Part shown: positions 9,316 to 31,805 of the stretch, in pieces | How positions within the stretch are numbered: the first letter of the stretch is position 1 | Layout: the number at the start of each line of letters is the position of its first letter | Source: a bacterium | Lineage (GTDB): Bacteria > Patescibacteriota > Patescibacteriia > Patescibacteriales > GWE2-39-37 | Length of the DNA stretch: 64,000 nt | Direction: 5' to 3' | Assembly (NCBI GenBank): GCA_037146995.1 | Contig: JBAWWA010000005.1 | Span: forward strand, 2,978 to 66,977 | The notes under the pieces: model-generated | What the model was told of the DNA's origin: nothing | The model's database searches: none | What the model saw: the letters and a program-made list of their open reading frames with translations, nothing else | Position numbers and translations under genes: made by a program

Positions 9316-9344
9316 TACATCATTTTTTTCCGAATAAATGCTGG
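9316..9344. repeat. attL: 29-bp direct repeat (orphan copy of the ftsZ 3' end)
   Basis: tacatcatttttttccgaataaaTgctgg matches 56740-56768 with 23 nt identical, then one mismatch, then 5 nt identical. The reverse complement reads CCA GCA TTT ATT CGG AAA AAA ATG ATG TAA, i.e. PAFIRKKMM*. Confidence 0.85.
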
Positions 9345-11833: not shown

Positions 11834-12112
11834 TTACTTCTGAAACTTCTTCTGACAATCAATGGCAATTTTTATGCACTCCTCCGGATCATAACCCAAG
11901 TCATCGCACCAACGAATTGTGGAAAATATTATATTGCCTAGCTCCTTTTTTAATTCCTCATCTGTATGCGTATTTGTATCCTTGATCGCATCTCGCTCCC
12001 AGCGACAAAGGTCACCAAAGACCTTGCCCATACGAACAATAATTTGGCTTAAACTTAATTTTTGGCCCGACCAGATTTCTTGACTTTGTTGTAATAGATT
12101 TTTTATTTCCAT
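11834..12112 (-). CDS. MazG-like all-alpha NTP pyrophosphohydrolase family protein
   Basis: 92 aa. The pattern ...GKVFGDLCRWERD...KELGNIIFSTIRWCDDLGYDPEECI resembles the small MazG-like family common in phages. Confidence 0.5.
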   Translation of the reverse strand: MEIKNLLQQSQEIWSGQKLSLSQIIVRMGKVFGDLCRWERDAIKDTNTHTDEELKKELGNIIFSTIRWCDDLGYDPEECIKIAIDCQKKFQK

Positions 12113-12257: not shown

Positions 12258-12296
12258 CTAATCTTTTTTAAATTGTAGGCAATTTTTATTTGACAT
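12258..12296 (-). pseudogene. Truncated relic of a 14th NCPQLK-family gene
   Basis: ATG TCA AAT AAA AAT TGC CTA CAA TTT AAA AAA GAT TAG encodes MSNKNCLQFKKD*. It lies 7 nt after the stop of the previous array gene, the same spacing and signature as the intact copies. Confidence 0.6.
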
Positions 12297-12303
12297 AAAA
12301 ATT

Positions 12304-13263
12304 TTACTTTGAAAAATCAACAATAAATCTAAACGCACGATCATTAGTGGCATCAAATGAGTCATCAGACTTGAATTGACACGGACTTATGTCACCCAAA
12401 TGATTAAAGTTTGCAATTGACCGTCCTCCTCTCAGCCGATATCCATCCAGCGTTTCATCGGAAAATAATTCCTCACTATCACTAAGTCCCCAATGACTGT
12501 AATGCATGTTGCCTAAAACATTAAATTCAATAGCTCGCAGTAATCTAACCTGTTCAGCTCTTACCTTTAACTTTTCAGCAACAGCTGAGACAAAATCACT
12601 ATTATTAAATACTGCTCCTTCGATATTAAATCTACTGCCAGCATCTTGCTCCTTGCCACTAATTGCTCCGTTAGCTCGATAATACTTAATAATATCAGAC
12701 AAATAGTCATTCTTGAATTCTCCTGCGTGATTATTGTAAGTATCACAACCTGGACGCTCACGCTTATCAACCAGCAACCATGAACCTTTTAAAGTAGCTG
12801 AATCATGCTGAATGTGCGGCCCCTTAGTTTTAAAAATTCCCAGTTTAGCATAATTCATCATTTGGTAGAACTCTTTATATGGTCGAAATTTCCAAGCAGC
12901 AAGCTTCGCCTTCTCCGTCATTTCAATTGACGGTAAATACCGTAACTCCATTTCCATTTTTTCCCAATGCTGGATATTCTCCAATGTAGCCTCAGCAGGT
13001 AATTCTGGCACATCAATATTTTTACCAAAAAATTTACTAAGATCTTTACATTCTCTATTTTTTAGCAATTCAATTTTTAATTCTTTACGTTTTTCAATAA
13101 CACTTACTCTCAATTTAGAAATATTAGCCATGTTTCTATCGAAATTTAAGGCATCATTACTTTGAGCGCTTGACGCAATGTTGACCTGTTTAGCAACAAT
13201 GAAAAATTGCTCTTTTAGAGAGCCAATAAATATTTTATGTTGCTTACAGCTTATATTTATCAT
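12304..13263 (-). CDS. NCPQLK-family protein, subfamily A (divergent N-terminus MINISCKQHK; FGE/CLec-like C-terminal tail)
   Basis: Shares FFGKNIDVPELP, ELRYLP, GSWLLVD, RAIEFNVLGNMHYSHW, YRLRGG and FRFIV with the other A members. Confidence 0.8.
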   Translation of the reverse strand: MINISCKQHKIFIGSLKEQFFIVAKQVNIASSAQSNDALNFDRNMANISKLRVSVIEKRKELKIELLKNRECKDLSKFFGKNIDVPELPAEATLENIQHWEKMEMELRYLPSIEMTEKAKLAAWKFRPYKEFYQMMNYAKLGIFKTKGPHIQHDSATLKGSWLLVDKRERPGCDTYNNHAGEFKNDYLSDIIKYYRANGAISGKEQDAGSRFNIEGAVFNNSDFVSAVAEKLKVRAEQVRLLRAIEFNVLGNMHYSHWGLSDSEELFSDETLDGYRLRGGRSIANFNHLGDISPCQFKSDDSFDATNDRAFRFIVDFSK

Positions 13264-13271
13264 AACAATTA

Positions 13272-14201
13272 CTACTGATTAAGCCTAATCATAACCCTAA
13301 AACCAACGCCAGTCGATCTGTCACTAGCGGAGAATGAATCCACCTGATCAATATCCCGTGTTGCACCGAAAACAAATTTAAATGTTTTTCCGTCTTGACC
13401 ACGATCAGAGCAATGTTCGCTTGAATTTGCCTGACCCAACTGAGGATAATACATATTTGCTAAAACATTAAATTCAATTGCCCTTGGATAATCAATGCAT
13501 TCGGGGCTTACAGCAAATATTGACGCAAATTCTTTTTTAGTTCTTTCGTCTTCAAGCTCGTCTAAAGTTATGCTACACCTTGATTCTTTCTTAATTTTTC
13601 CGGTTTTTGATGACTCGGCTATCGCAGCCTCATCTACAACACCCTTGGATTTAAGTCCAGAAATTATAGCAGCTAGTAGGTCATCTTCATATTCCTGAGT
13701 TTCACCCATACTAATACGCCATGGCTTCTTGATATTTTCAATTAAAAACCAACCTGATTTTAACTGAGTAATATCTTTGGGAAATGTTCCTTTATTTATC
13801 ATGTCCCACATTCCAAATGCCCCACTATGTGGCTTTTTCCTCCAACCCGGATACTTAGCGCTCTTGTTCATGTTTATCTCTGGTAAGTAATGAAGATCTA
13901 GACCGAGCTGCTTCCATTGTTCGAGTTTATCTTGTGTTATTTCTTTAGGTAAAAATGACACCTCAATTTTTTCACCAAAAAATTTTTCCAGGGCCATTGC
14001 CTCTCCTTTTCTAATTTCAAAACCAAATGGCAATAACTCTCGAAGATCAGTAATTAGAAACTCAAGAAACATCATCTTACCGTTTATTTTATCGGCATGA
14101 TCACACGTGCTGGCCGTCTGAATAGATTCATTAATATCATCAATTCTGAACTTTAATTCGTCAAGTTGTTTTTTTAATTGTGGGCAATTTAGATTTCGCA
14201 T
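13272..14201 (-). CDS. NCPQLK-family protein, subfamily A
   Basis: MRNLNCPQLKKQL start, with FFGEKIEV, DLHYLP, SGWFLIE, PRAIEFNVLANMYY and a GFRVMIRL end. Confidence 0.85.
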   Translation of the reverse strand: MRNLNCPQLKKQLDELKFRIDDINESIQTASTCDHADKINGKMMFLEFLITDLRELLPFGFEIRKGEAMALEKFFGEKIEVSFLPKEITQDKLEQWKQLGLDLHYLPEINMNKSAKYPGWRKKPHSGAFGMWDMINKGTFPKDITQLKSGWFLIENIKKPWRISMGETQEYEDDLLAAIISGLKSKGVVDEAAIAESSKTGKIKKESRCSITLDELEDERTKKEFASIFAVSPECIDYPRAIEFNVLANMYYPQLGQANSSEHCSDRGQDGKTFKFVFGATRDIDQVDSFSASDRSTGVGFRVMIRLNQ

Positions 14202-14210
14202 AATTTCAAT

Positions 14211-14885
14211 CTATTTCTCATTTTCTATATCTGGAATTACAAAGATATATTTCTGCTCCCAGTCTTGACTAGGTAGCACAGCTAACGTTTGTCGATAACC
14301 ACCCAGGGAGGAATATCGACGATTTGTTAAACAAAACACATACTTTTGACTACCATAAGCTATTGGCTCCATCGCTACAGCGAACCTTTCACCTTCTGCT
14401 AAATGTAAATCCTCTCGCCCTAAATACAATGCTGTTTCGGTCTGACAAAGATCAAATCCGATATCCATAGCTTTTTTATTAACCTCATTGAGATTACTCA
14501 AGTAATCTACACCAAGCGTTTTATAGTCAATAAATGCTATTCTTATTTTTTTTGGAGTATCTGACAGAATGCAATTTATACTCCTAACTACTCCAATCCT
14601 AGTGCTTTCAGCGGGTCCTATAATTTCAGATTCAAGCTTGTTTTTATCAAGAGTGCCACCAATTAACAACTCCTTGGTCTGTATTTGCTCTTTAATTAAA
14701 AATTTTTCAAGACTAACATGTCGCTTAAATTCAAGAACAATATCAAGCAGCTCCTGTGATAAATCTTCAATCTCAGCGAAGTTTTTTCCAGTATCAATAT
14801 TTGCAATATGCTCACCCATAATTAATACTTGCTCTTTAAGGTATTCTAATTTGTATTTTAGCTGTGGGCAATTATTATTGTTCAT
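14211..14885 (-). CDS. NCPQLK-family protein, subfamily B
   Basis: MNNNNCPQLKYKL start. The C-terminal half (IRIAFIDYKTLGVDY...AMDIGFDLCQTE) is homologous only to the next gene. Confidence 0.85.
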   Translation of the reverse strand: MNNNNCPQLKYKLEYLKEQVLIMGEHIANIDTGKNFAEIEDLSQELLDIVLEFKRHVSLEKFLIKEQIQTKELLIGGTLDKNKLESEIIGPAESTRIGVVRSINCILSDTPKKIRIAFIDYKTLGVDYLSNLNEVNKKAMDIGFDLCQTETALYLGREDLHLAEGERFAVAMEPIAYGSQKYVFCLTNRRYSSLGGYRQTLAVLPSQDWEQKYIFVIPDIENEK

Positions 14886-14887
14886 CT

Positions 14888-15595
14888 TTAAACTTTAAAT
14901 ATATATTCGCCAAAATTTGCCTGAGACTTGTAAGATTTTGCACTAATCAATGGATTAACCTCCTCAACTCTAATAAATATCATATTATTGTCCCTGACAT
15001 CAGTGATTGGATCCACAGGAAAATTATACATACCCTGCTTTGCATTTTTTTGACTAGCGAACTGTTCAATAAAAGATACAATGGACTGTGCCGGACAAAG
15101 TTCGAAGCCCATACTCTGAGCCCTTTTTACCAGCTCTACTGACGTTGCACCGTCTTCCAGACCGATTTCATGTGCATCAACACAAACTAACCTTAATTTA
15201 TTTGGACATGTCTCGCTCAAATCAAATCCTATCTGTTCGCGCGTTTTATGAAAGAGCGCAATATTCAATAGTGTGTCTGCGGCCGTTTTATCCATTTCAA
15301 GACCGAAGTTTTTCAATTTAGCAATAGTGCCCTTGTTGGCCAGACAAGAAGGATCTACATTAACCTCCACTAGACCAAACTTTTTAAATAGCTCGTCCTT
15401 GCGTAGTTGCACAAGATTTATTTTTAACTCACCTACCAAATCCTCTAATTTAGCCAACTTATCAAGCATAAAACCAATTTCGTTAGGTTTACAACTACCA
15501 TCTTTAAGTATTTTAACCTCTGTATTCAGCAAATTTTTCTTTGCGATAATATTTACTAGCTGTTTTTTTAGTTGTGGGCAATTCAAATTAGACAT
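14888..15595 (-). CDS. NCPQLK-family protein, subfamily B
   Basis: MSNLNCPQLKKQL start. C-terminal half is LRLVCVDAHEIGLED...AQSMGFELCPAQ. Confidence 0.85.
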   Translation of the reverse strand: MSNLNCPQLKKQLVNIIAKKNLLNTEVKILKDGSCKPNEIGFMLDKLAKLEDLVGELKINLVQLRKDELFKKFGLVEVNVDPSCLANKGTIAKLKNFGLEMDKTAADTLLNIALFHKTREQIGFDLSETCPNKLRLVCVDAHEIGLEDGATSVELVKRAQSMGFELCPAQSIVSFIEQFASQKNAKQGMYNFPVDPITDVRDNNMIFIRVEEVNPLISAKSYKSQANFGEYIFKV

Positions 15596-15598
15596 AAA

Positions 15599-16513
15599 TT
15601 ATTTATCAATACGAACAACCAGACGAAAACCAATATTCTGACTTCTGTACTCGCTGTTAAAATGTCCAATACCGGAGAAGCCATTTTTTGTAGAGCTGCC
15701 AGAGCAGATCGTTGAGCCCAGACTAGCAAAATCATTGTTTAACCATTCCATAGTGCTGGTCTTGCTCCACTCAGGATGATGTATATTACCTAAAAAGTAA
15801 TACTCTGGTAATCTTGGCAAGCCAACTTGAGTCCACTCTACATTTAACAAGTCAGCAAATGCTTGTTTAACACCAATTTTACTCTCTAGTTCTATTGGCG
15901 TTTGTCCATACCTTGATGACTGACTGATCTGCATTTTTTTGTCAGATGCTTGTTGCTTTGAGGCCTTAACTTTTGGCTCGGCCTCAAGTAACCCCATAGC
16001 CTTTAACTTAACAATTACTGGAGCCAAGCTATCATTATTATACTCAGTAACCGGCTCACTTATTTCCGGCTTTGGGCAAGTATCAACTAATATCCAACAG
16101 CCATTTAGCTCGAATTTTGAAAAAAATCCAAGTGATGCACCAAATTGATATAAACTATTTTTTAAATTATTATCAAAATCTTCAAAGCTCGTCTTAGGCA
16201 AGCAATGAAGTTTAAAACCCAGTCTTTCCCAGTTTCTTATTTTTTCATGAGTAACTGACTTCGGAAATTCTGGCAACTCAACTTCACGTTTGAAAAAACG
16301 GCCTATCTTTTGTCTCTCTCTTTTTTGCAACATCAAACCAACCGGCAGCAGTTCTTCAAGCTTAATCATTAAAGATGAGAGCATGTTTATCATCTTATCT
16401 AAATCAGATAAACCTTGTTTATCAACATCAACAATCATCAACTCTATATCGGCCTGAATTTTATCAATTTCTTGAAGCTGTTTTTTTAGTTGTGGGCAGT
16501 TTATATTTTGCAT
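15599..16513 (-). CDS. NCPQLK-family protein, subfamily A
   Basis: MQNINCPQLKKQL start, with KLHCLP, GCWILVD, LGNIHHPEW and a GFRLVVRIDK end. Confidence 0.85.
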   Translation of the reverse strand: MQNINCPQLKKQLQEIDKIQADIELMIVDVDKQGLSDLDKMINMLSSLMIKLEELLPVGLMLQKRERQKIGRFFKREVELPEFPKSVTHEKIRNWERLGFKLHCLPKTSFEDFDNNLKNSLYQFGASLGFFSKFELNGCWILVDTCPKPEISEPVTEYNNDSLAPVIVKLKAMGLLEAEPKVKASKQQASDKKMQISQSSRYGQTPIELESKIGVKQAFADLLNVEWTQVGLPRLPEYYFLGNIHHPEWSKTSTMEWLNNDFASLGSTICSGSSTKNGFSGIGHFNSEYRSQNIGFRLVVRIDK

Positions 16514-16515
16514 AA

Positions 16516-17391
16516 CTATTTATTTTCATTCAATCTGGCCATTAATCTAAAGCCGGTATTATCTGAGCTTCGTTCGAAACCAGTTAGGCCAACAGACGAT
16601 AGATTGTTATCACCAACCCAGCCCGCCACAAGATTTTTCACAATTAATTGGCTATCAGCCAGCCATTCATTACATTCCGTATCGCCCCATTCTGGATGAT
16701 GCATATTTCCCAAAACACTATATTCTATCGCTCTAGGCAACCCCAAGCTTTCAACTGGCACGTTAATTACATACGCCAGTTCATTTAAAATACTCTGGCT
16801 CTTTAGTTCCCGAGCTGTAATATTAAATCTTGAACCACCCTTATCAATACTTTTGATTGCAAAAATGCTTCGCAAATATGCCAAGACGTCACCAAGTAAG
16901 TCATCAACGTAACCATCTCTAGATTTTTTAATTCCTTCAATAAGTATCCACCCAGCCTTAAGTCTTGTTGAGTTTGCTGGTAAAGTGCCGTCGGCAACTA
17001 AATCATAAAAACTTTTATCAAGCTTATTTTGCCAGCCAGGACAACCAACATCTTTTGACATATCCACATCTGGTAAGTAATGAAGCTCCATGCCAAGTTC
17101 TTGCCATTCCATATACTGCTCGGGCGTAACAGTTGCTGGCACATGCAGCACCTTAATTTTATTACCAAAGAATTTTTCCAAGGCAACTGCCTCTTGCCTA
17201 ATTATCTTTCGGTCAAACAATAACGCATCAAAGGTAAGTATCGCATTGGTCAACTCCTCTAATTTATCATTTATATATTCAATTTTTACGTCCTTGTGGC
17301 TAGGAACCTGCAATAACTCAACAACACCGTTTTCAAGCGCTTTTAGTGTGGCTAAATTATTTTTCAGACTCGGACAGTTAATATTTGACAT
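16516..17391 (-). CDS. NCPQLK-family protein, subfamily A
   Basis: MSNINCPSLKNNL start, with FFGNKIKV, ELHYLP, AGWILIE, PRAIEYSVLGNMHHPEWG and a GFRLMARL end. Confidence 0.85.
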   Translation of the reverse strand: MSNINCPSLKNNLATLKALENGVVELLQVPSHKDVKIEYINDKLEELTNAILTFDALLFDRKIIRQEAVALEKFFGNKIKVLHVPATVTPEQYMEWQELGMELHYLPDVDMSKDVGCPGWQNKLDKSFYDLVADGTLPANSTRLKAGWILIEGIKKSRDGYVDDLLGDVLAYLRSIFAIKSIDKGGSRFNITARELKSQSILNELAYVINVPVESLGLPRAIEYSVLGNMHHPEWGDTECNEWLADSQLIVKNLVAGWVGDNNLSSVGLTGFERSSDNTGFRLMARLNENK

Positions 17392-17400: not shown

Positions 17401-18039
17401 TTATTTAGGCCAGGTTTTTACCCAACTCTTGCCTTGTTCATTAAATCCAAAGATCATCTGGTTCTCCATGTTACCATCCACAAGGACACCACGATTTATC
17501 TCCGTATCTCTTTGCATGCTTGCCTCACCTCTAACATCAATACTCCCAGATTTAAGCATAAATGCATATGACAGACCGTCGGTGACCTCACCGGTATTTT
17601 CGTATTCACTAAAATCTTTTATATCGCCCTCACTAGCCATTAACATTAATAAATTCCCTTGCTGATCAATAATTTCAGACACCAATTTCAACTTGGCAAA
17701 ATCATCACCCAATTCTGCAGTAAACTTCTTAAATAAATCAACAATTTCCTGTCGACTAAAAATAACCTTGCCGAGCATTTGCGAAGTTACGAACTGACTA
17801 ACAAAATGCTCACTTTTTGGCATCAAGTCATCCAAGCCACGCTCTTTTTTAATATTTCGCACAATATCCTTCACACAATAAAGCTGAGCGATCGCAAATC
17901 GCTCTTTTTGTATTCCCTGATCCAAATCATGAATATCAACTGCCTGATCAACATCCTTAATACTCTCGCCAAAATCAACTAAAGCTTGGGCTAGTTTTTG
18001 AAATTCATTTTTTAGTTGTGGGCAGTTTGGATTATTCAT
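17401..18039 (-). CDS. NCPQLK-family protein, unique C-terminal module (212 aa)
   Basis: MNNPNCPQLKNEF start. The remainder is unlike any other copy. Its start (ATGAATAA) overlaps the upstream stop. Confidence 0.8.
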   Translation of the reverse strand: MNNPNCPQLKNEFQKLAQALVDFGESIKDVDQAVDIHDLDQGIQKERFAIAQLYCVKDIVRNIKKERGLDDLMPKSEHFVSQFVTSQMLGKVIFSRQEIVDLFKKFTAELGDDFAKLKLVSEIIDQQGNLLMLMASEGDIKDFSEYENTGEVTDGLSYAFMLKSGSIDVRGEASMQRDTEINRGVLVDGNMENQMIFGFNEQGKSWVKTWPK

Positions 18040-19198
18040 AATTTATATCAAAAACCTTTTCACCTTTTTTATTTATATAGTAAGACGCGCCACCTTTACT
18101 AACAAACGCAATATCACCAACGAAGGGATTCGTTTTACTGAAAGAATCTTTTATTGCTAATTCGCCACTCTTATTGATATACCCCCACCTACCGTTTATC
18201 ATTATCGAAGCAAGGCCTTCATAAAAATCAGATACTACATTAAATGAATTTCCATAAAAATTTTGACCACTTTTAAAAATAATATTTTCACCCCTATCTA
18301 TTGCAATTATCTCTTCGTTAACAACTGCCCAAGCAATACCATCACTAAACTGTCGTAAAAATTGGTATTTTTTATTTGATACTTTTTCTCCATCAAGACC
18401 TACAAAATAGCAAGAATCTTTTTCTTTAATGACCGCCAACCCATCTTTAAAATCTGAAACAGCTTCACCATACATTTCATATAGCTCGTCTCCTGTATTG
18501 TCAATTAAGATCGTATCATCGCCAAATTTAACAAACGCTCTTTCATTATGAAACTCACCAGCTTCATCATATTCACCAAAAACCTTTTCACCCTTACTAT
18601 TTATATAAAAACAATCATTGTCCTGTTTGACCGAGCAAAACCCCTCACTAAATCGCCCAACATCGTCATAGCATTCATCGTTCAAACTACCTCCATCTTT
18701 AGTCACAAAATTATATCCAGTTCCAAGATTCCAATGTGCAACACCTTCATAAAAATCACTAACATCTTGATAGCCAGATCCAATTTCCTCACCATTTTCA
18801 TCTATCCAAGTCCAATCGCCATACATGCTTACCCTGGCCATGCCTTCGTGAAAATCACAAACCTCATCATAGTCAACTCCAATTTTTTGCCCTGACTTAT
18901 CGATAAAAAATTGTCTATCACCCTGAATTACTTTTGCACGATCATCAATAAATCTACCAACAAAATTATAATTAAATTTCTCGGCTAGTTTAAGCCTATA
19001 CTTTAAACCAAAAAACGCCTCATTTGTTTTGATCAGTTCTATTTGATTTTGAAGATCATCAATAACTGCTGAAAAATTTTCCAATTCACCAATATTTGTA
19101 GCTTCGTGAATATGACTAACAAAATTATGTGCCTTATCTTCCAAGGCTTTTATTGCACTTAAACTCATTCTAAGTTGTGGACAGTATAAATTGTTCAT
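18032..19198 (-). CDS. NCPQLK-family protein with C-terminal WG (KWG-type) beta-repeats
   Basis: MNNLYCPQLRMSL start, followed by about 8 repeats of F-x-(E/D)G-x-A-x-V...(W/Y)-x-(Y/F)-I-(N/D)-x-x-G-E, e.g. FYEGLASIMINGRWGYINKSGE. Confidence 0.85.
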   Translation of the reverse strand: MNNLYCPQLRMSLSAIKALEDKAHNFVSHIHEATNIGELENFSAVIDDLQNQIELIKTNEAFFGLKYRLKLAEKFNYNFVGRFIDDRAKVIQGDRQFFIDKSGQKIGVDYDEVCDFHEGMARVSMYGDWTWIDENGEEIGSGYQDVSDFYEGVAHWNLGTGYNFVTKDGGSLNDECYDDVGRFSEGFCSVKQDNDCFYINSKGEKVFGEYDEAGEFHNERAFVKFGDDTILIDNTGDELYEMYGEAVSDFKDGLAVIKEKDSCYFVGLDGEKVSNKKYQFLRQFSDGIAWAVVNEEIIAIDRGENIIFKSGQNFYGNSFNVVSDFYEGLASIMINGRWGYINKSGELAIKDSFSKTNPFVGDIAFVSKGGASYYINKKGEKVFDINYE

Positions 19199-19214: not shown

Positions 19215-20225
19215 TCAACTGCGAGAAAAGACTACTCCAACATTGCGACGTGAATCGCTAAGCCCTCTGCCATAAACACTCGCACCGCCAAGATCAACAT
19301 TACCAACATCGACTATATTACCAACCGAATCACAGCGCATCGTCCATGCCTTAGTATTTTCCAATAATTTTTCATCATTATTCTGTCTATAACTAAAAAT
19401 ATCATATAAAACCTCGGCGGGAGTTTGCCTGGATAACTGATTGATTTTCAATGCCGAGAGCTCACGTGCGTACTTTTTAGAGGTCGGACCACTAATTAAA
19501 TCTTGAATCTCACCATCAGTTTTGCCTTTAAAATTCTTCACAAAGTAATCAACATACTCATCCATGGCTTCGATAAATTTTCTTGGTATAGCAGTGCCGC
19601 CACACTCTGTGTTGAATAAATCATCTACATAATCATAAAGAACTCTCGTTTGCTCGAAATAATTCTTATCCGTTGAGGCTGGAATAATTTCTTTGGAAGT
19701 TAGCGACCATCTGAATTTAATTGGATCGTTTTGCCAAAAATCTTCTAGACTAAACAACTCTTTCAAATCAGCTAATTCCTTGTAGGTAATTTTTCCTTTT
19801 TGACTTTCGTCATAACCACCGTCCAATAAGCTAGCTCGTACTCGCTCCATAGTCAATGGTTGACCTTCACGGTCTATATCAGAACGCAATACCAAGAACT
19901 GACCAAGCTCTTTGGCTTTAATTAATTCCTCTTTTGAGAATTGAATAGCCGGAATATTTTCTTTTGAAATCTCAATGCCAAAAGCTTTTTTGACCTCATC
20001 TGGCCCCAACACCTCCCTGGTACCCATGATTTCTTTGGCACGCTCAATTGATACTGGTGTTTGTTTTTTTAACTCTTTTAATAATACTTCGGCCTGATTC
20101 AAGTTTGCTTGAACATCAAAGATATTTTTTTTGTTAACAACACCAATCTCCATCTTAATTACTGATTGAAGCTTCTTGAGTTCTTTGAGTTGTGATTTTA
20201 GTTGTGGGCAATTCAAATTACTCAT
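19215..20225 (-). CDS. NCPQLK-family protein, unique C-terminal module (336 aa)
   Basis: MSNLNCPQLKSQL start. Its start codon overlaps the stop of the VWA gene (ATGAGTAA). Confidence 0.85.
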   Translation of the reverse strand: MSNLNCPQLKSQLKELKKLQSVIKMEIGVVNKKNIFDVQANLNQAEVLLKELKKQTPVSIERAKEIMGTREVLGPDEVKKAFGIEISKENIPAIQFSKEELIKAKELGQFLVLRSDIDREGQPLTMERVRASLLDGGYDESQKGKITYKELADLKELFSLEDFWQNDPIKFRWSLTSKEIIPASTDKNYFEQTRVLYDYVDDLFNTECGGTAIPRKFIEAMDEYVDYFVKNFKGKTDGEIQDLISGPTSKKYARELSALKINQLSRQTPAEVLYDIFSYRQNNDEKLLENTKAWTMRCDSVGNIVDVGNVDLGGASVYGRGLSDSRRNVGVVFSRS

Positions 20226-23200
20226 ATTGTTTTAAGTTTTCCGTCATCACGTCTTCGATTTTTTCCTTAACCATTTTGACAAGTAGCGTACTGAACTGAT
20301 CAACTATTTCTTGAGGCGTATTGGCTGAGATTACATTCCCAACACCCAAACGATCCTCAAGTGATTTTTTAGCTCCATCGCTACCAATGGCCATTCCGCC
20401 AACTCCTACATTCATTCTTCTTAACTTTTCGGCTATTTCAGCGGCTTCATAACCATCAATCTCACCATCAGAAATCTGAAATATCATCTCGGTCATTTTC
20501 TGATCTTTTAGCAAGCGCTGAATTATCTCATCTTGATGTTGTGCTTCGAGTATCTGCCAACAATCATCGTCCTGAGTACCACCCATAGCCTTTATTTTCT
20601 TAAATGAACGTATTGTTGAGATAGTTTCGTAGTCAGCATCTTGCGTTGGTGCTGTACCTTCTGCTTTTTCAAGAAACGACAAATCTTCTATATCAAAACG
20701 TTTCACTTGATGAGTACTACTCTCAAAACCAAGAATCTGCAGATCGGTTAAAACATCTTCCTTGGCAGCTGCTGGTCCAATAATACGCTCAAGCTCGTTC
20801 TTGAATAATACCCGAAAGCTACGGAGCGAGGAATTAATCAACATTACAGCCATTCTTACGGCATCAATATTACCACTCATACTACCAGACAAATCAACTA
20901 AAAGATTCACTCTAAGTAATTTTGGACGCAACTCTGCGACAATCTTTTCGATAAACTGTTCGTAGACACGTTTTTGGTCAAAGCCATAACCTAATTCAAT
21001 TTCGGGCCAATGTCTTTGCAAGCGTTTAGCATCTAGTTTACCCTCGCGGTAATATTTGTCTTTAAGGATCTCAAATTTCTGACTAATATTGCGTACAACA
21101 TCTGACCATGTCTCTGCCATCTTATTGGCATATGGTGCTAACTCGTTTTCAAGTTTCTTGAATTGATCATACAACTCGGCATCAACCTCAAGTGGATCTT
21201 CTTTATAGCCTCCGCTACCAGCCCCTGAACCGGACATTTTTTTTAAAATACGATCCTTGTCTCTCTCGGCAGCCTGTTTAGCTTGAAATTCTGGACTCTT
21301 GAGCTGAGCCTCAACGTCTTTGAGTGTTTTTTCTCGCTTATCTTGCGCCATCATATCACGCAATGATTTTTCCATATCACTCATTGCCTCACCCAAATCA
21401 ACATCCTCCCCGTTTTCACCCGAAGACTCTCCACTACCATCACTCCTTTCCTTCTTTTCTTTTTCCTTCGACTGCAGATCTTTATCTTGTTGATCTTTAT
21501 CCTTACTCTTTTCTTTTGAATCTTTATTCTTCTTGTCTTTTTTCTCCTTCGGCTCGCGTTTACGCTTATCATCTTTACTAACACTCTGACCACCATCATC
21601 AGCTTCATCGTAAAGCAAGATCAGTTCCTGGTCTGGACGAAAGAATACTTCTGTCTTAGTCGAAACGCCTACGCCTGAAGCCATAGCCTGCTCTTCATCA
21701 AAATACCTAACCTCAACAGATCTGACCCCATGAGTAGCCTCATCTGGAATTACATTTACAATCACTCCTTTCTGACCAGTTTTAGCATTCTTAACTTCGT
21801 CACCAGCTTTCCAGCTTGGCGACTCTTGATTTTCTGGTGAACTATCACCATCCTCGCCTTCACCTTCTTCACCTGGCTCTTTTTCTGGTGGCAATTTTAC
21901 TTCGAAGTTATCATCTATAATGCACAATAAGGTATAAATAGGTTCAAGCACTTGACGCATAACTCGTGTACGTTCGGTTAGACCAAATTTAAGTGGACGA
22001 GTAGCCGAGTAGCCGCTAGCCGCCTTCGTTTCCTTAAACCGGTCAAATAATTCAATAAAGGTTAGACTATCAAAACTCTTGATACCCATACTTTGTTGAA
22101 CGCGCCTAATCTTGGCTCCAAACTGAGCATTGGCCCACGCTGCATTAATGCATGGCTCAATTTGACCAGACTTTTGCTCCTTGTCAGTCATTAACACGCC
22201 ATTATCATAAAGCTCACTCCCCACCTTTTCTGATTCACCGTTTTTAAGCGCAAAATTATTTACCAAATGTACTTGTTTTAGGAAACGCGAATAGCGTTCA
22301 AGCTTTTCCGGTTCGGCCTGATTCTTATTATTAACTATACCGAGCAATGACTCGTATGCTTCGGCGAGTGGCTTTCGCAATACGATACTCGCCGCCTCAC
22401 TCAGATGATGTTTACCATTTGGATTTTCTTTTTCATCATAAACATCTTGTGGTTTCATGCCAATCATCTGGTTCTTGATAAAAAAAGTCAGAAACTCACC
22501 AGCATTTTTAAGTTCAGGCCTTGCTTTGGTAAAATCGATACCTTTTTCATAATCGACTTCATCAAGTAAACGCAAATCTCCAGTACCTGTCTCAACTTTA
22601 TGAATCTCACCCTTTTCATTTTGCGCAAAGTCACCGCTAACTACGTCTTCATACAAAGAAAACATTTTGGTGGTATACATAGACTCGATACTTTCGGTAC
22701 GCTTTTTACCCTCGGCTGTAAAGTTTGAGGCAAAGTATGCCGACTTCAGCACTAAGTGGTTGACCATGGCATCCTCAAGAATATTGTAATATTGACGATA
22801 GGTTGATGACAAAGATACGAACTTGCCAGGATTATCTATGCTCGGGATTTTTTTACTGCGTTCATAGTTGAACTGCTCCAGTTGGTTATACTTACCAGCT
22901 GGATCAAGCTCCATCATGGTCTTGAGATGGGCAAATTCATGACAACCAACAAAAACAAATTGTTCCTCGGTCATCTTGCCGCCTTCGCGCATGGCCTTAA
23001 ACTCTGGTGTCGACAAAGAGATCTTGTCCGCACCTGGCTCATGATAAAAACCCATACCGCCAACGAGTTTGAATTTGGCATTGCGATTATCAAGAAAGGT
23101 TGTAAAAATATCCGACTTGGTGCGTGCCCATTCTTGTAGTTCATCTCTTTGGGTCCACAGTTCACGTGGTACACCATTTTCATCAAAGGGCTTTTCTTGT

Positions 23201-23244
23201 TTTACAGCATCAATTGATTCTATTTTTGGTTGAAATTGTTTCAT
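20218..23244 (-). CDS. HExxH (zincin-like) N-terminal domain + charged low-complexity linker + C-terminal von Willebrand A (MIDAS) domain protein
   Basis: VGCHEFAHLK motif near the N-terminus. Central stretches are E/G/D-rich and K/E/D/S-rich. The C-terminal LLVDLSGSMSG (DxSxS), ...GGTQDD... and ISDGEIDG motifs fit the VWA MIDAS pattern. Confidence 0.8.
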   Translation of the reverse strand: MKQFQPKIESIDAVKQEKPFDENGVPRELWTQRDELQEWARTKSDIFTTFLDNRNAKFKLVGGMGFYHEPGADKISLSTPEFKAMREGGKMTEEQFVFVGCHEFAHLKTMMELDPAGKYNQLEQFNYERSKKIPSIDNPGKFVSLSSTYRQYYNILEDAMVNHLVLKSAYFASNFTAEGKKRTESIESMYTTKMFSLYEDVVSGDFAQNEKGEIHKVETGTGDLRLLDEVDYEKGIDFTKARPELKNAGEFLTFFIKNQMIGMKPQDVYDEKENPNGKHHLSEAASIVLRKPLAEAYESLLGIVNNKNQAEPEKLERYSRFLKQVHLVNNFALKNGESEKVGSELYDNGVLMTDKEQKSGQIEPCINAAWANAQFGAKIRRVQQSMGIKSFDSLTFIELFDRFKETKAASGYSATRPLKFGLTERTRVMRQVLEPIYTLLCIIDDNFEVKLPPEKEPGEEGEGEDGDSSPENQESPSWKAGDEVKNAKTGQKGVIVNVIPDEATHGVRSVEVRYFDEEQAMASGVGVSTKTEVFFRPDQELILLYDEADDGGQSVSKDDKRKREPKEKKDKKNKDSKEKSKDKDQQDKDLQSKEKEKKERSDGSGESSGENGEDVDLGEAMSDMEKSLRDMMAQDKREKTLKDVEAQLKSPEFQAKQAAERDKDRILKKMSGSGAGSGGYKEDPLEVDAELYDQFKKLENELAPYANKMAETWSDVVRNISQKFEILKDKYYREGKLDAKRLQRHWPEIELGYGFDQKRVYEQFIEKIVAELRPKLLRVNLLVDLSGSMSGNIDAVRMAVMLINSSLRSFRVLFKNELERIIGPAAAKEDVLTDLQILGFESSTHQVKRFDIEDLSFLEKAEGTAPTQDADYETISTIRSFKKIKAMGGTQDDDCWQILEAQHQDEIIQRLLKDQKMTEMIFQISDGEIDGYEAAEIAEKLRRMNVGVGGMAIGSDGAKKSLEDRLGVGNVISANTPQEIVDQFSTLLVKMVKEKIEDVMTENLKQYE

Positions 23245-23256: not shown

Positions 23257-24714
23257 TTAATCATCATCCCAATCTTCCTCATATTCTGGCTCTAGCTTTT
23301 TTGGTGTAAATATTGTTTCACCTTTTTTGTTTATGTAAAAACTTTCATCACTTTCATCTTTGCGCACTTGCCATAAACCATCTTTATAGCCATAAAATTG
23401 AGCAATATCTCTAATAATTTCTTTACCTTCCATAGTATAACCATCATAGACCACGTCATTTCCCATTATTCTGCTGGATGTAAAAGTTATGCCATTACAG
23501 ACATCACTTGGATCATATTCTGATTCGAAATTCGTAAAATATTTATTTAGCTGTCCTTGCTTGTCAATAAAACTCCAAGTCAAGAATTCTTCATTGCCAG
23601 GATATTCATTTTTCACCTTTGCATACCCTTCTTTAAACGAATGTACCTCAAATTGCCACACTTCAAGCAAAATAACCCCATTAGTATCTATGAAATTATA
23701 TCTTAAATATTCCTCAGATTCGTCTGGTAAGTTATTCCCATGCTCATCTTCATATTCTTGAGTGAATCTTGTGCTCACTACTGCATAACCTTCAGAAAAA
23801 GATTTTACAGACTCATAGCCCTCAAAGCATACTTCGCCTTTGAGATCCAAAAAATACTCATTACCCTCAAGGTCCTTAACTCTTGTGTAACCATTACTAT
23901 ATCCGTCAACCTCTTGATACTCACCTTCATGAAAAACTTTTCTTGTCGCCACGTCATAAAATACAAACTCATCACCTTGCTTTCCGGTAATAACACCTTC
24001 AGAATACTGTGAATAGTTAAGACTTGGCAAATCACAAATCTGAGTGTAACTCTGATCTAATATCAAATCACCGCTAACGCCACCATGAATAATAACCACC
24101 CCGTCATTACTTTTGTCAACACCAAAACCACTACGAACCTCGCGGAATATCTTCGACTCCTCTTCTAGCTTGTTTCCCTTTTTATCAATAAAATAATAAG
24201 GTGATGAATCGATACTTTTTTTTACGATTGCCCGACCATTAGCAAACTGACTAGCATATACAAATTCTCCATCACTAAAACCTCCGTAACCACAAATATA
24301 GCCATCTTTATTAAGGTATACATGTTTATTTTTTATCTTCACCACCGCCATGCCATCAGAAAAGTGTGAAACCAAACAAGCACCTTTTGAAAATCTATTC
24401 TTTACTCCACCCTCTTGATCAACAATAAACAGTTCCTCATCCTTCTCACCAAAAGCGCGACCTTCGGAAAATTTACTTAAAAAATTAAAACCATGGATTT
24501 TGGCGATCCTGTCACGAAATTTGATTTGATTTGGATCACTTTTTTCCGATAGTGCGCAGAATAATTCAGACACTGAGGCAAAACTTGCTTCAATGTCTTT
24601 AAAGTCAGTTGACTTGCCAGCCTGCAAAAAGCCTTGAAACTCAAGCTCAAAATCCTCAAGGTTTTTCTTAAGTTTTTGAAGATCTAATTTTATCACTGAA
24701 CAATCGGTCTGCAT
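23257..24714 (-). CDS. WG-repeat protein with a degenerate NCPQLK-type N-terminus (MQTDCSVIKLDLQKLKKNL)
   Basis: The preferred start is the ATG at 24712-24714, 1 nt after the upstream stop. Repeats include FSDGMAVVKIKNKHVYLNKDGY, FSEGYAVVS and FKEGYAKVKNE...WSFIDKQGQ. Confidence 0.8.
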   Translation of the reverse strand: MQTDCSVIKLDLQKLKKNLEDFELEFQGFLQAGKSTDFKDIEASFASVSELFCALSEKSDPNQIKFRDRIAKIHGFNFLSKFSEGRAFGEKDEELFIVDQEGGVKNRFSKGACLVSHFSDGMAVVKIKNKHVYLNKDGYICGYGGFSDGEFVYASQFANGRAIVKKSIDSSPYYFIDKKGNKLEEESKIFREVRSGFGVDKSNDGVVIIHGGVSGDLILDQSYTQICDLPSLNYSQYSEGVITGKQGDEFVFYDVATRKVFHEGEYQEVDGYSNGYTRVKDLEGNEYFLDLKGEVCFEGYESVKSFSEGYAVVSTRFTQEYEDEHGNNLPDESEEYLRYNFIDTNGVILLEVWQFEVHSFKEGYAKVKNEYPGNEEFLTWSFIDKQGQLNKYFTNFESEYDPSDVCNGITFTSSRIMGNDVVYDGYTMEGKEIIRDIAQFYGYKDGLWQVRKDESDESFYINKKGETIFTPKKLEPEYEEDWDDD

Positions 24715-27900: not shown

Positions 27901-27929
27901 GCGACTGGCGGTCGATTTTCCTTAAACAT
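24921..27929 (-). CDS. Large (1002 aa) AAA+ ATPase, MoxR / AAA_5 (CbbQ/NorQ/GvpN-like) core with long helical extensions
   Basis: Walker A is LHGDHGTGKTALA. Walker B plus the downstream helix is PLIIDEANAIPPEVLIAFNDLL, typical of the MoxR/AAA_5 clade. It lies adjacent to a VWA gene. Confidence 0.8.
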   Translation of the reverse strand: MFKENRPPVARSTEAAKDTKLENTFEAEDLAFGYMAKLEESRALMDEMVENITVKDLSSETLQSLFDGVHREDVEEILAHAKDFKKIDGLAKELESREMSPEIIHKTLTAAKIALVEKSDENKTNNVNVEVFKDLLKIAETEDGDDFYDFIMQSIENKELASLSEHDQENTSSNAYREAENRAAGKSHRAFLNLEEYFELDQELGAYSDDEMKSIEKYAQAQYPDVRDTIRKLRQNKSTLAASKSSRNVDMLRSSEELGAMRPRLKQERIGKLNERFSRLAKKNLGLNLNVGMETEYEKSGNIVAKEFLPAYVNYKRELGNLWQMLHNGKIVETPYIKSIIEKILPVLKVQEGKSPTIVYLHGDHGTGKTALATHIARNYLTGKDENGKSKDPIIVSGSKYLEPDRFTETFKIENLTPEEHFKIIAKKFGEDVDLSSNESLTKTIAAMVGSEKEQREAVFMQVARQEYHNSLSEDQDDTESGFEAYFKKNEKKLRGETEELVNGQLASVYGNPVQGRFVLGAMYEAMRQGVPLIIDEANAIPPEVLIAFNDLLTKKIGETQKTQASIGEFQIKPGYCVIWTGNTGDRYTKARHNDTDPATYSRIIPVQVNYLPQSNQLNEAKTDIERLNLGHITDEFKDDEELQKIIDDSKSLAKNDQIFEVLLMKMMNQRLGARVLVKKDDRYSFFKDMYRLSVGARLIMDVFEGKAGNSGLRLDNLKPILGADVTPALIASSLSSANLTMRELMDQILGAYVDQGGSMDIEYYLWNYVKKYDQHPQAQAVIYATLNKAGFFSADGGWPDYMRVDSNQSQAVTDFKQMMNFDPLRDLGKYEGVAGEVDGKYKRIAQNGDYVSMLNTQGQYELSYFSSLEMTQLVFGYLPMRKKEEYEKIAGKMREGEDDTEAEIRGLEMVKQVKKIMELMVGLEYDSIKELDMVIDKIKEYEVKFDEAEKGAKLETYEEFFAFLEGYLHKRSMLSDEELAEAANMTPEQRAQNLINKLSNK

Positions 27930-29927: not shown

Positions 29928-29938
29928 AATTCAATACA

Positions 29939-31733: not shown

Positions 31734-31805
31734 AAATAATAACATGAATGAATTTTATAAGTTTGGCAGGTAACCAAAAATTTTGCCAACTTTTTTGCCA
31801 AACCA

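What the first reader, a model, noticed from the sequence alone, without database searches (positions are those of the whole stretch)
12304..17391. Subfamily-A C-terminus resembles the C-terminal half of the FGE / C-type-lectin fold used by DGR variable proteins, but here diversity is hard-wired as paralogues
SEEN: all seven A copies end with (L/Y)PRAIE(F/Y)NVLGN(M/I)H(H/Y)x(E/D)W, then EW-x-x-D, then (Y)R-L-x-GG, then 15-25 hypervariable residues, then GFR-hydrophobic. A copies also occur at 29052-31733. ESTABLISHED: the FGE-sulfatase / CLec fold carries GN(V)WEW...RGGSW...GFR in the same order. In diversity-generating retroelement targets the ligand-binding variable region sits just before the terminal GFR-type strand. 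FGE-like domains have also been proposed as sensor modules in NTPase conflict systems. INFERENCE: the most divergent stretch among the paralogues, between the GG and the GFR, corresponds to that binding surface. The array may therefore encode a germline repertoire of binding specificities.
Basis: partly seen in the sequence, partly recalled or inferred. Interest (0 to 1): 0.6.

Follow-up and report, generated by a model that had tools for sequence, protein, structure and literature searches.

The report
Hard-wired array of DGR-type lectin-fold sensors
A prophage in a Patescibacteria genome carries seven fixed gene copies of a binding protein that related bacteria diversify with a mutagenic retroelement, and the copies differ at the positions that retroelement would mutate, so the repertoire here looks inherited rather than generated on demand.

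Summary
Seven paralogues share a roughly 215-residue C-terminal body that ends in LPRAIEFNVLGN, EW..D, (G)G, a variable stretch and GFR. The motifs are degenerate in the four downstream copies.

- An AlphaFold2 model (pLDDT 91) matches almost only FGE/C-type-lectin-fold structures in the PDB, including the DGR target TvpA. The scores are modest, and no Pfam FGE-sulfatase match exists.
- In eight related Patescibacteria loci, homologues are true DGR targets. An intergenic template repeat, bAvd and a reverse transcriptase lie alongside, and 171 of 195 template/variable mismatches fall at template adenines. The variable region is the (G)G-to-GFR segment.
- The window and most of its contig hold no reverse transcriptase, Avd or template repeat.
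- The seven copies diverge most at the columns that DGRs mutate elsewhere (p = 4e-5), while the scaffold residues between them stay conserved.

The copies lie in a 21-kb operon inside a 47-kb prophage. The operon also encodes a MoxR-like AAA_5 ATPase, a vWA-like protein and an AAA_14/DUF4143 ATPase. Fourteen of its proteins share one N-terminal helical module. Elsewhere the body is fused directly to AAA_5 ATPases.

Verdict: a DGR-less, paralogue-expanded variant of the known MoxR-vWA/CLec DGR-target systems. A sensing role is inferred, not shown.

The parts
29052..29927 (-). A copy (291 aa): N-terminal helical module (res 1-77) plus FGE/CLec-like body (res 78-291). The VR-equivalent segment is 29079-29168.
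   Evidence: AF2 pLDDT 91. Foldseek hits are FGE-fold proteins. Family HMM E = 3e-100. Segment coordinates.
29939..30829 (-). A copy (296 aa). VR-equivalent segment 29966-30055.
30843..31745 (-). A copy (300 aa, or 296 aa from the ATG at 31733). VR-equivalent segment 30870-30959.
12304..13263 (-). A copy (319 aa), the most degenerate one: AFR in place of GFR and a 9-residue insertion in the variable segment. VR-equivalent segment 12337-12447.
13272..14201 (-). A copy (309 aa) that has lost the GG and the EW tryptophan. VR-equivalent segment 13305-13394.
15599..16513 (-). A copy (304 aa). VR-equivalent segment 15632-15721.
16516..17391 (-). A copy (291 aa). VR-equivalent segment 16555-16644.
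14211..15595 (-). Two non-A paralogues (14211-14885 and 14888-15595). They carry the same N-terminal module and a shared C-terminal domain of unknown type.
   Evidence: N-module HMM E = 4e-25 and 2.5e-18. No Pfam, PHROG, PADLOC or NCBIfam hit.
17401..18039 (-). N-terminal module plus an unknown C-terminal domain (212 aa).
18032..19198 (-). N-terminal module plus WG-containing beta repeats (388 aa).
   Evidence: Pfam WG_beta_rep 9e-30. N-module match.
19215..20225 (-). N-terminal module plus an unknown C-terminal domain (336 aa). An orthologue lies at L046:5237-6250. The C-terminus resembles the A body only weakly.
   Evidence: hhalign P = 0.025, not significant. The single-sequence AF2 model is unusable.
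20218..23244 (-). 1008-aa vWA-like protein. It has a MIDAS-type motif VDLSGSM near residue 782 and an HEFAH motif at residues 102-106.
   Evidence: It aligns with the vWA proteins of related loci at the MIDAS motif. The profile hits vWA proteins in the PDB (4cn8 E = 9e-4). Pfam VWA hits the counterparts in L009, L001 and L021 but not the window protein itself.
23257..24714 (-). N-terminal module (start at the ATG at 24714, MQTDCSVIKLDL) plus a WG-repeat protein. It lies between the ATPase and the vWA gene.
   Evidence: Pfam WG_beta_rep 2e-13. N-module HMM 2.9e-19.
24921..27929 (-). 1002-aa MoxR-class AAA+ ATPase (AAA_5).
   Evidence: Pfam AAA_5 8.8e-8. phrog_249 1.5e-11. GvpN-like 3.5e-6. BLASTP to the L001 AAA_5 at 2e-7.
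27951..28955 (-). N-terminal module followed by leucine-rich repeats of about 23 residues. The repeats were seen by eye only.
   Evidence: N-module HMM 1.4e-21. The repeats are not detected by Pfam or by self-BLAST.
31806..33209 (-). AAA_14 plus DUF4143 ATPase, the first gene of the operon. The same gene type lies next to A homologues in three other loci.
   Evidence: Pfam 5.5e-34 and 8.4e-22. Adjacency in L004, L046 and L047.
12260..12298 (-). Truncated remnant of a fifteenth N-terminal module (MSNKNCLQFKKD, then a stop).
9316..9338 (.). attL: a 23-bp exact repeat, TACATCATTTTTTTCCGAATAAA, next to the integrase gene (9464-10372).
56740..56762 (.). attR: the same 23 bp, overlapping the 3' end of ftsZ. 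The prophage spans 9316-56762 and encloses the whole operon.
   Evidence: Phage structural genes.

Best explanation
The seven A genes encode soluble two-part proteins. The first part is a helical-hairpin module of about 70 residues, shared with seven other proteins of the same operon. The second part is a body of about 215 residues with a divergent FGE/C-type-lectin (FGS) fold.

This body is the target-protein family of Patescibacteria DGRs. In relatives, one to three copies sit with a MoxR-like AAA_5 ATPase, a vWA protein, bAvd, a reverse transcriptase and a template repeat. There the 30 or so residues between the (G)G and the terminal GFR are rewritten at about a dozen Asn-coded positions.

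In this prophage the retroelement is absent and the copy number has grown to seven. The copies differ chiefly at those same positions while keeping the scaffold residues between them.

Inferred mechanism, not shown:
- Each paralogue presents a different fixed ligand-binding surface.
- The shared N-terminal module docks all fourteen proteins (CLec, WG-repeat, leucine-rich-repeat and others) onto one MoxR/vWA machine, possibly together with the AAA_14/DUF4143 ATPase.
- Ligand binding is converted by ATP-dependent remodelling into an output, most plausibly a conflict or defence response carried by the prophage.

Shown: family membership, fold similarity, DGR targeting in homologues, absence of a DGR here, where the divergence falls, and the prophage location. 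Inferred: ligand sensing, docking through the module, and the output.
For: - Family. 672 cluster representatives at E <= 1e-3, with the body always at the C-terminus and often fused to AAA_5 ATPases.
- Fold. AF2 pLDDT 91, and the Foldseek list is made up almost entirely of FGE-fold proteins, TvpA among them.
- DGR targeting in homologues. L004 has the VR at 2311-2414 and the TR at 2688-2791; the four mismatches inside the 104-nt repeat, and two more in the codon just upstream, all lie at TR adenines. It also has bAvd (3e-20) and RVT_1 (6e-27). Across 14 VR/TR pairs in eight loci, 171 of 195 mismatches lie at TR adenines.
- Operon conservation. AAA_5, A, A, Avd, RT, vWA, A in L008, and related orders in L007, L009, L013 and L017. 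L001 keeps only a 108-aa RT remnant.
- No DGR here. No RT, Avd or TR in the window or in about 76 of the 80.6 kb of its contig.
- Where the divergence falls. DGR-hit columns score 0.03 against 1.84 for other body columns (p = 3.9e-5), and -0.34 against 0.96 inside the segment itself (p = 0.012). Six other DGR-less arrays show the same pattern.
- Shared module. It is present in 14 proteins at E = 1e-18 to 1e-28.
- Operon and localisation. Genes are packed with gaps of -8 to 96 bp and none has a transmembrane segment.
- A related system in L046 has a vWA homologue at 7e-140, module-bearing A and 19215-type proteins, and AAA_14/DUF4143.
- Literature. FGS domains occur in MoxR-vWA ternary systems linked to DGRs (PMC7159879). 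[quoted passage not shown]
Against: - No sequence method links the body to PF03781. Pfam gives nothing for 7 + 6 + 126 members even at E <= 10, a PDB profile search finds only consensus TPR proteins, and hhalign against vertebrate FGE aligns only the GFR motif.
- The window's own vWA protein has no Pfam hit.
- No recognisable effector domain lies in the operon. PADLOC finds only a weak TRIP13-like AAA hit.
- The four downstream copies have lost several family motifs, and a truncated fifteenth copy exists, which would also fit decay.
- Nothing here tests binding, docking or defence.
Confidence: 0.6

Rival explanations
1. The copies are relics. They were diversified by a DGR that was later lost, and are now drifting or decaying rather than being kept as a working repertoire.
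For: L001, L002 and L010 show a decayed DGR (a 108-aa RT remnant) next to three A copies that differ at the DGR columns. In the window, four copies have lost the GG or W motifs and a truncated fifteenth copy is present. In A29052, eight of the nine codons aligned to template-Asn codons are NNY and code Tyr, Asp, His or Arg.
Against: All seven are full-length intact ORFs in a tightly packed operon. The scaffold residues interleaved with the variable columns remain conserved (L258, G261, L268, S269, V271, GFR). The NNY signal is not specific: 0.67 at the variable columns against 0.70 at neighbouring scaffold columns. A DGR origin of the differences does not exclude present function.
Confidence: 0.15
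2. The fourteen module-bearing proteins are phage receptor-binding proteins or adhesins, analogous to Mtd. Their common N-terminal anchor attaches them to the virion or the cell surface, and MoxR/vWA acts as an assembly chaperone.
For: The operon lies inside a prophage, just downstream of the tail-fibre and lysis genes. CLec folds serve as phage receptor-binding proteins. A shared N-terminal anchor with variable C-termini is typical of phages with several receptor-binding proteins.
Against: Homologues lie in chromosomal, non-phage contexts with MoxR and vWA, or are fused to the ATPase. There is no signal peptide, transmembrane segment or tail domain. The array lies after the lysis cassette, in the accessory region. 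No relatives were found in IMG/VR or in curated phage genomes.
Confidence: 0.12
3. The array is a polymorphic toxin or effector set: a conserved N-terminal trafficking domain with variable C-terminal toxins.
For: The architecture, a conserved N-terminus with variable C-termini in tandem, resembles polymorphic toxin loci.
Against: The C-termini that can be identified are binding-type folds: CLec in seven and WG repeats in two. No interleaved immunity genes are present and the gaps are 2-16 bp. No toxin domain was found in Pfam or PADLOC.
Confidence: 0.05
4. The copies are still hypermutated, in trans, by a DGR located elsewhere in the genome.
For: DGRs can act on remote targets. About 5 kb of the contig and the rest of the MAG were not seen.
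Against: The seven VR-equivalent DNA segments share no common template-like sequence with each other or with anything else in the window; only 12-16 nt chance matches were found. Seven separate templates would be needed.
Confidence: 0.03
5. The C-terminal motifs reflect a TPR-like helical repeat or some other unrelated fold.
For: The profile of the last 103 residues hits consensus TPR proteins, with a summed E of 4e-8.
Against: Every individual stretch scores E > 70, so the total comes only from summing 8-16 identical designed repeats. The confident AF2 model has beta strands there and matches FGE-fold proteins.
Confidence: 0.02

Closest known systems
[quoted passage not shown]
   Same: Same protein family. 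The long homologues are AAA_5::A-body fusions, and eight loci have the TR, bAvd and RT acting on the C-terminal segment. PMC10907252, citing Paul et al. 2017, describes this architecture as the commonest in CPR. PMC5758913 reports midasin/AAA-type CPR targets whose VR fold was undetermined.
   Different: The window has no DGR. The body is not fused to the ATPase but to a 70-residue N-terminal module. There are seven copies, and the locus is prophage-borne.
MoxR-vWA ternary conflict systems with FGS (FGE-sulfatase/CLec) domains (Kaur et al. 2020, PMC7159879; Dore et al. 2024, PMC10907252)
   Same: A MoxR-class AAA+ ATPase and a vWA protein in one operon with CLec-type variable proteins. There is a DGR link in relatives, and the logic of shared adaptor domains coupling many partner proteins to one core is the same.
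   Different: In the described systems the FGS domain is usually fused to the vWA protein, and a VMAP, iSTAND, FtsH or beta-propeller third component defines the subtype. Here the CLec body stands alone or is fused to MoxR. No VMAP was identified, the adaptor matches no described family, no peptidase, TIR or nuclease effector is recognisable, and the host is not a multicellular lineage.
TvpA (Treponema denticola, PDB 2y3c) and Mtd (Bordetella phage BPP-1) DGR variable proteins
   Same: A CLec/FGE-type fold with the variable residues in the C-terminal stretch that ends at a GFR-type strand. TvpA is among the Foldseek hits (E = 0.034).
   Different: About 10% sequence identity and TM about 0.3. 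TvpA and Mtd are surface or virion proteins, whereas the A proteins have no export signal and partner with ATPases.
Formylglycine-generating enzyme family (PF03781)
   Same: Overall fold by Foldseek, and the terminal R....GFR motif aligns at the domain end.
   Different: No HMM match, and no conserved cysteine anywhere in the body (invariant columns), so there is no sign of an FGE-type catalytic cysteine pair. It is not an enzyme of this family.

Membership tests
FGE-sulfatase / CLec fold (PF03781) | Significant match to the Pfam FGE-sulfatase HMM | tested here: not met
   No hit for the 7 window copies at E <= 1, for 6 homologues or for 126 family representatives at E <= 10. hhalign against a vertebrate FGE alignment aligns only 13 columns around GFR, P = 0.013.
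FGE-sulfatase / CLec fold (PF03781) | Three-dimensional similarity to solved FGE/CLec-fold structures | tested here: met
FGE-sulfatase / CLec fold (PF03781) | Catalytic cysteine pair of FGE enzymes | tested here: not met
   No cysteine is among the invariant or nearly invariant body columns of 21 family members.
DGR target (variable) protein | C-terminal VR paired with a TR, with mismatches at TR adenines | tested here: not met
   Window: blastn-short of the last 141 nt of each A gene, which hold the seven VR-equivalent segments, finds only 12-16 nt chance matches, and repeats among the paralogues are 60-85% identical coding similarity. Homologues do meet it: 14 VR/TR pairs in 8 loci, with 171 of 195 mismatches at TR adenines.
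DGR target (variable) protein | Reverse transcriptase and accessory Avd in the locus | tested here: not met
   tblastn of the L004 RT and bAvd against the window gives nothing better than E = 0.49. No RVT_1 among the large ORFs scanned with Pfam. The contig flanks L005 and L006 have none. The rest of the genome was not testable.
DGR target (variable) protein | Homology to proteins that are demonstrably DGR-diversified | tested here: met
   A29052 is 45% identical to P0005, the L004 target. All seven copies match the family HMM at 1e-72 to 1e-100.
MoxR-vWA ternary conflict system | MoxR-class AAA+ ATPase | tested here: met
   AAA_5 8.8e-8, phrog_249 1.5e-11, GvpN-like 3.5e-6, and homology to the AAA_5 of L001 and L031.
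MoxR-vWA ternary conflict system | Adjacent vWA-domain protein with a MIDAS motif | tested here: inconclusive
   The window protein has no Pfam hit. It does carry DLSGSM, which aligns with the MIDAS motif of the counterparts. Those counterparts hit Pfam VWA at 2.6e-10 to 4.6e-5, and the joint profile hits vWA structures at E = 9e-4.
MoxR-vWA ternary conflict system | Defining third component (VMAP, iSTAND, FtsH, or a beta-propeller fused to vWA) | tested here: inconclusive
   No such Pfam domain was found. A WG-repeat protein lies between the ATPase and the vWA gene but is not fused to vWA. No VMAP model was available to test.
MoxR-vWA ternary conflict system | Recognisable effector domain (peptidase, TIR, nuclease, cyclase) | tested here: not met
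   None in Pfam, PADLOC, PHROGs or NCBIfam. The only leads are an HExxH motif in the vWA protein and a weak Mrr_cat hit (E = 0.011) in the AAA_14/DUF4143 protein.
Effector-associated adaptor domains (EADs) | The same short domain shared by several partner proteins and by a core component | tested here: inconclusive
   Fourteen proteins share the module, including the one encoded between the ATPase and the vWA gene. The ATPase and the vWA protein themselves lack it, and it matches no Pfam family.

The most novel reading that the evidence does not exclude
A temperate phage of a Patescibacteria host carries a self-contained, inherited receptor repertoire. Fourteen binding proteins (seven CLec, plus WG-repeat, leucine-rich-repeat and others) plug through one common N-terminal adaptor into a single MoxR/vWA machine, possibly with an AAA_14/DUF4143 ATPase. 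On this reading, a lineage whose relatives rely on DGR hypermutation of one to three CLec sensors has replaced it with a fixed multi-gene array, the way germline receptor arrays stand beside somatic diversification in animals.
Probability: 0.35. Interest if true: 0.75.

Novelty: new variant of a known kind. Interest (0 to 1): 0.55.

Why it matters
DGR-diversified CLec proteins attached to MoxR/vWA or STAND ATPases have been proposed as hypervariable antigen sensors, but nobody knows what they bind or how they signal. This locus offers the same protein family in a fixed form: seven natural variants whose differences sit at the DGR-mutated positions on a conserved scaffold. That makes a ready panel for binding and structural work without a moving target.

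The comparison also puts both solutions to the diversity problem, a mutagenic retroelement and a gene array, in one family. Intermediates exist: an RT reduced to a 108-residue remnant, and an RT split in two. The transition can therefore be traced.

The analysis assigns a fold to a large set of Patescibacteria DGR targets (at least 672 sequence clusters) that Pfam does not recognise and that earlier surveys left unclassified.

Finally, 45% of a 47-kb prophage is devoted to this system. That suggests it matters in phage-host or phage-phage conflict in these small-genome episymbionts.

Tried and rejected
- Sequence links to FGE. Pfam on the copies, on homologues and on 126 representatives, PDB profile searches and hhalign against an FGE alignment all failed. 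The last protein-database search returned only vertebrate SUMF1 orthologues, too shallow to be a useful profile.
- TPR reading of AIEWNYLGNAYYKEWG. Rejected: each stretch has E > 70 and the model has strands there.
- Fossil-DGR codon signature, meaning NNY codons at columns aligned to template-Asn codons. They are enriched against the rest of the gene (0.67 against 0.49, p = 0.005) but not against neighbouring scaffold columns (0.70), so the test does not discriminate.
- BFVD fold search. Uninformative.
- Single-sequence AF2 of the 19215-20225 protein. pLDDT 37, unusable. Its weak resemblance to the A C-terminus (hhalign P = 0.025-0.043) is not significant.
- PADLOC, PHROGs and NCBIfam on the operon. 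Only generic AAA hits.
- Relatives of A, vWA or AAA_5 in IMG/VR and in curated phage genomes. None found.
- Paul et al. 2017 could not be read.
- PF27273, recorded for homologue P0010, is absent from the local Pfam copy and from the paper library.

Full report
**Setting**

The window is a piece of a bacterial chromosome (NrdR, FtsA, FtsZ) from a Patescibacteria-type MAG. The source contig is 80,586 bp.

A 23-bp exact direct repeat, TACATCATTTTTTTCCGAATAAA, lies at 9316-9338, next to a tyrosine integrase gene (9464-10372). It recurs at 56740-56762, overlapping the 3' end of ftsZ. Between the two copies lie an endolysin, a C1q-type tail fibre, a tail tube, a capsid, a prohead protease and a portal. 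The repeats therefore bound a 47.4-kb prophage.

The finding sits in a 21-kb minus-strand operon (33209 down to 12304) inside that prophage, between the lysis genes and the integrase. Gaps between its genes run from -8 to 96 bp.

**Checking the observation**

Seven intact ORFs form subfamily A: 12304-13263, 13272-14201, 15599-16513, 16516-17391, 29052-29927, 29939-30829 and 30843-31745. The stated motif series is present in the stated order. It is clean in the upstream trio and partly degenerate in the downstream four:
- GG is present in three of the seven copies.
- EW is replaced in A12304 and A13272.
- A12304 has AFR instead of GFR.
- A12304 has a 31-residue rather than a 22-residue stretch before the GFR.

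The interval 12304-17391 also contains two non-A paralogues.

Among the seven copies, residues 251-280 (A29052 numbering) are the least conserved part of the body. Mean BLOSUM62 pair scores there are -0.19, 0.40 and 0.09. In orthologues from other genomes, residues 251-270 are fairly conserved at 1.75 and 2.35.

**What the protein is**

A word-indexed search found only about 20 relatives, all from Patescibacteria MAGs. An exhaustive profile search with the body alone (232 positions, starting at LIxxExxKLxxFFG) found far more: 672 cluster representatives at E <= 1e-3 and 214 at E <= 1e-30. The body is always C-terminal. In nine long proteins of 800-1157 residues it is fused to an AAA_5 (MoxR/dynein-type) ATPase.

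No Pfam family covers the body, even at E <= 10 across 126 members.

AlphaFold2 with a 21-sequence alignment gave a confident model (pLDDT 91.1, pTM 0.81). It shows an N-terminal helical hairpin (residues 6-77) followed by an alpha/beta body. In Foldseek against the PDB, 40 of the top 43 hits are FGE-fold proteins: PvdO (probability 0.97), CarF, SenA/EgtB, the DGR variable protein TvpA, FGE and pFGE. The alignments span about 260-290 columns, but the scores are weak (E = 0.01-1, TM 0.29-0.39).

The whole body therefore looks like a divergent FGE/C-type-lectin fold, not only its last 110 residues. Sequence-level membership of PF03781 fails. An apparent TPR match comes only from summing identical designed repeats.

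**The decisive comparison**

Locus L004 encodes an AAA_14/DUF4143 ATPase, then the A homologue P0005 (45% identical to A29052), then a 104-nt repeat of the gene's 3' end, then bAvd (PF22296, 3e-20) and a reverse transcriptase (RVT_1, 6e-27). The copy inside the gene codes LNGGHSDYGGLANVDYDSAGYRNDSLGFRSL. The intergenic copy codes Asn wherever the gene has Tyr or Asp. The four mismatches inside the 104-nt repeat, and two more in the codon just upstream, all lie at adenines of the intergenic copy. That is the signature of DGR mutagenic retrohoming.

Scans of genome and metagenome collections gave 39 more loci. Local annotation showed a recurrent operon:
- L008: AAA_5, A, A, Avd, RT, vWA, A.
- L007: A, Avd, RT, vWA, A.
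- L009: AAA_5::A fusion, A, Avd, RT, vWA.
- L013, L014 and L017: an AAA_5::A fusion with Avd and, where the contig extends far enough (L013, L017), the RT.
- L011: fusion, A, A, Avd.

Across 14 VR/TR pairs in eight loci, 171 of 195 mismatches are at template adenines.

The A family is therefore the known Patescibacteria DGR-target family. [quoted passage not shown] PMC5758913 left the fold of such midasin/AAA-linked variable regions undetermined. PMC8144416 notes that CPR targets usually lack recognisable domains.

**No DGR here**

tblastn of the L004 RT and bAvd against the window finds nothing (best E = 0.49). None of the seven VR-equivalent segments has a second copy. Repeats among the paralogues are only 60-85% identical coding similarity. 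The contig outside the window encodes NrdD, NrdG and giant surface-type proteins. About 5 kb of the contig and the rest of the genome could not be examined.

**Where the paralogues differ**

I mapped the columns substituted by DGRs in at least two variable regions onto the window alignment. Those 20 columns have a mean pair score of 0.03 among the seven copies, against 1.84 for the other 208 body columns (Mann-Whitney p = 3.9e-5). Inside the segment itself the DGR columns score -0.34 and the interleaved scaffold columns score 0.96 (p = 0.012). L258, G261, L268, S269, V271 and G284-F285-R286 are kept.

The pattern holds separately for the upstream trio and the downstream quartet. It also holds in six other DGR-less tandem arrays (L016 with four copies, L012 and L001 with three each, and L018, L015 and L035 with two each).

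L001, L002 and L010 retain a 108-residue RT fragment between A and vWA. In L030 the RT is split into two ORFs, whereas in the near-identical L029 it is intact. Loss of the retroelement with retention of differentiated copies is therefore a recurring path.

A codon test for a fossil DGR signature (NNY codons) did not discriminate.

**The rest of the operon**

Fourteen proteins share the N-terminal module, at HMM E = 1e-18 to 1e-28. They are:
- the seven A copies;
- two proteins with a common unknown domain (14211-14885 and 14888-15595);
- 17401-18039;
- a WG-repeat protein (18032-19198, Pfam 9e-30);
- 19215-20225;
- a second WG-repeat protein (23257-24714), encoded between the ATPase and the vWA gene;
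- 27951-28955, which shows leucine-rich repeats of about 23 residues by eye only.

A truncated fifteenth module lies at 12260-12298.

The core genes are:
- a 1002-residue AAA_5 ATPase;
- a 1008-residue protein whose DLSGSM motif aligns with the MIDAS motif of the vWA proteins in related loci. Those relatives hit Pfam VWA, and the joint profile hits vWA structures, but the window protein alone does not;
- an AAA_14/DUF4143 ATPase at the head of the operon. This gene type also flanks A homologues in L004, L046 and L047.

L046 is a true relative of this system. It has a vWA homologue at 7e-140, an A protein with the module, AAA_14/DUF4143, and an orthologue of 19215-20225 with the module.

No protein in the operon has a transmembrane segment.

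**How it most likely works**

Shown: the family, the fold similarity, DGR targeting in relatives, the absence of a DGR here, the position of the divergence, and the shared module.

Inferred:
- Each A copy offers a different fixed ligand-binding surface.
- The common module docks all fourteen binding proteins to one MoxR/vWA machine.
- ATP-dependent remodelling turns ligand recognition into a response.

This follows the logic proposed for MoxR-vWA ternary systems and their DGR-diversified FGS domains (PMC7159879, PMC10907252).

The output is unknown. The only leads are an HExxH motif near the N-terminus of the vWA proteins (HEFAH here, HEFEH in L009, HELMAH in the L001 type) and a weak restriction-endonuclease-like hit in the DUF4143 protein.

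**Rivals**

The rival readings are neutral relics of a lost DGR, phage receptor-binding proteins, a polymorphic toxin array, and hypermutation in trans. Each is weighed in its own section. None fits the ATPase fusions, the chromosomal homologues and the conserved scaffold as well.

**Verdict**

The fold and the DGR-target family are already known in outline, as are MoxR-vWA systems with FGS domains. What is new:
- the DGR-less, paralogue-expanded, prophage-borne form with a common adaptor on fourteen binding proteins;
- the demonstration that divergence among the paralogues falls on the DGR-mutated positions.

I rate it a new variant of a known kind, of moderate to good interest.

Noticed in passing
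window 9316-9338 and 56740-56762: A 23-bp exact direct repeat bounds a 47.4-kb prophage integrated at the 3' end of ftsZ. The integrase lies at 9464-10372. The 21-kb operon makes up about 45% of the prophage.
   Followed up: partly
window 31806-33209; L004:278-1417; L046:3917-5194; L047:296-1420 and 2609-3892: An AAA_14 plus DUF4143 ATPase gene lies next to A-family genes in four independent loci. This is a second recurrent ATPase partner besides AAA_5. The window protein has a weak Mrr_cat (restriction endonuclease) hit at E = 0.011.
   Followed up: partly
window 20218-23244 (protein residues 102-106); L009:12621-14603; L001:11181-13208: The vWA-type proteins carry an HExxH-like motif near the N-terminus (HEFAH, HEFEH; HELMAH in the L001 type), followed by a conserved (I/L)L.N..(E/D)D...N stretch. 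It may be a metallopeptidase-like domain. No Pfam hit.
   Followed up: partly
window, first 10 residues of the 14 module-bearing proteins (e.g. 17391 downward, 29927 downward): The N-terminal module starts with a nearly invariant M-x-N-x-N-C-P-Q-L-K. The cysteine is conserved in all 14 proteins, and similar starts (TCPQLQ, NCPDLR, NCQQI, SCAQLR) occur in L046, P0003, P0004, L015 and L019. Its role is unexplained.
   Followed up: no
window 12260-12298 and 11834-12112: A truncated fifteenth N-terminal module (MSNKNCLQFKKD, then a stop) is followed by scrambled frames and then a small MazG-like ORF (weak Pfam hit, E = 0.007).
   Followed up: partly
L001:10858-11184 (also L002 and L010); L030:10676-11940 against L029:10965-12272: Decaying DGRs. 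A 108-residue RT fragment lies between A and vWA with no template repeat left. In L030 the RT is split into two ORFs, whereas its near-identical relative L029 has it intact.
   Followed up: partly
L012, L016, L018 (all from MAG SMAG_U2644): One Patescibacteria MAG holds at least nine A paralogues in three tandem arrays (3, 4 and 2). They share a different N-terminus (MPSxSLxNPF...) and no RT was seen on these contigs.
   Followed up: partly
P0010: A precomputed Pfam accession, PF27273.1, is recorded for this homologue, but it is absent from the Pfam copy that could be searched and from the paper library. It may be a newly curated family covering this domain.
   Followed up: partly
window 1124-9073; L006:750-9998: Giant ORFs flank the region. 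One of 2649 residues has no Pfam hit. Beyond the window, proteins of 3082 and more than 991 residues carry weak T4SS_pilin and Big_5 hits.
   Followed up: no
window 35047-37293: The prophage tail-fibre candidate carries a C-terminal C1q domain (Pfam 1.2e-8).
   Followed up: no
window 52415-53653: A ParB_N plus N6/N4 DNA methylase fusion lies in the prophage near the terminase region.
   Followed up: no
L017 (DATMXG010000094.1): A complete vWA, AAA_5::A fusion, Avd and RT locus lies on a contig binned as Candidatus Methylomirabilis. This is either a mis-binned Patescibacteria contig or a case of horizontal transfer.
   Followed up: no
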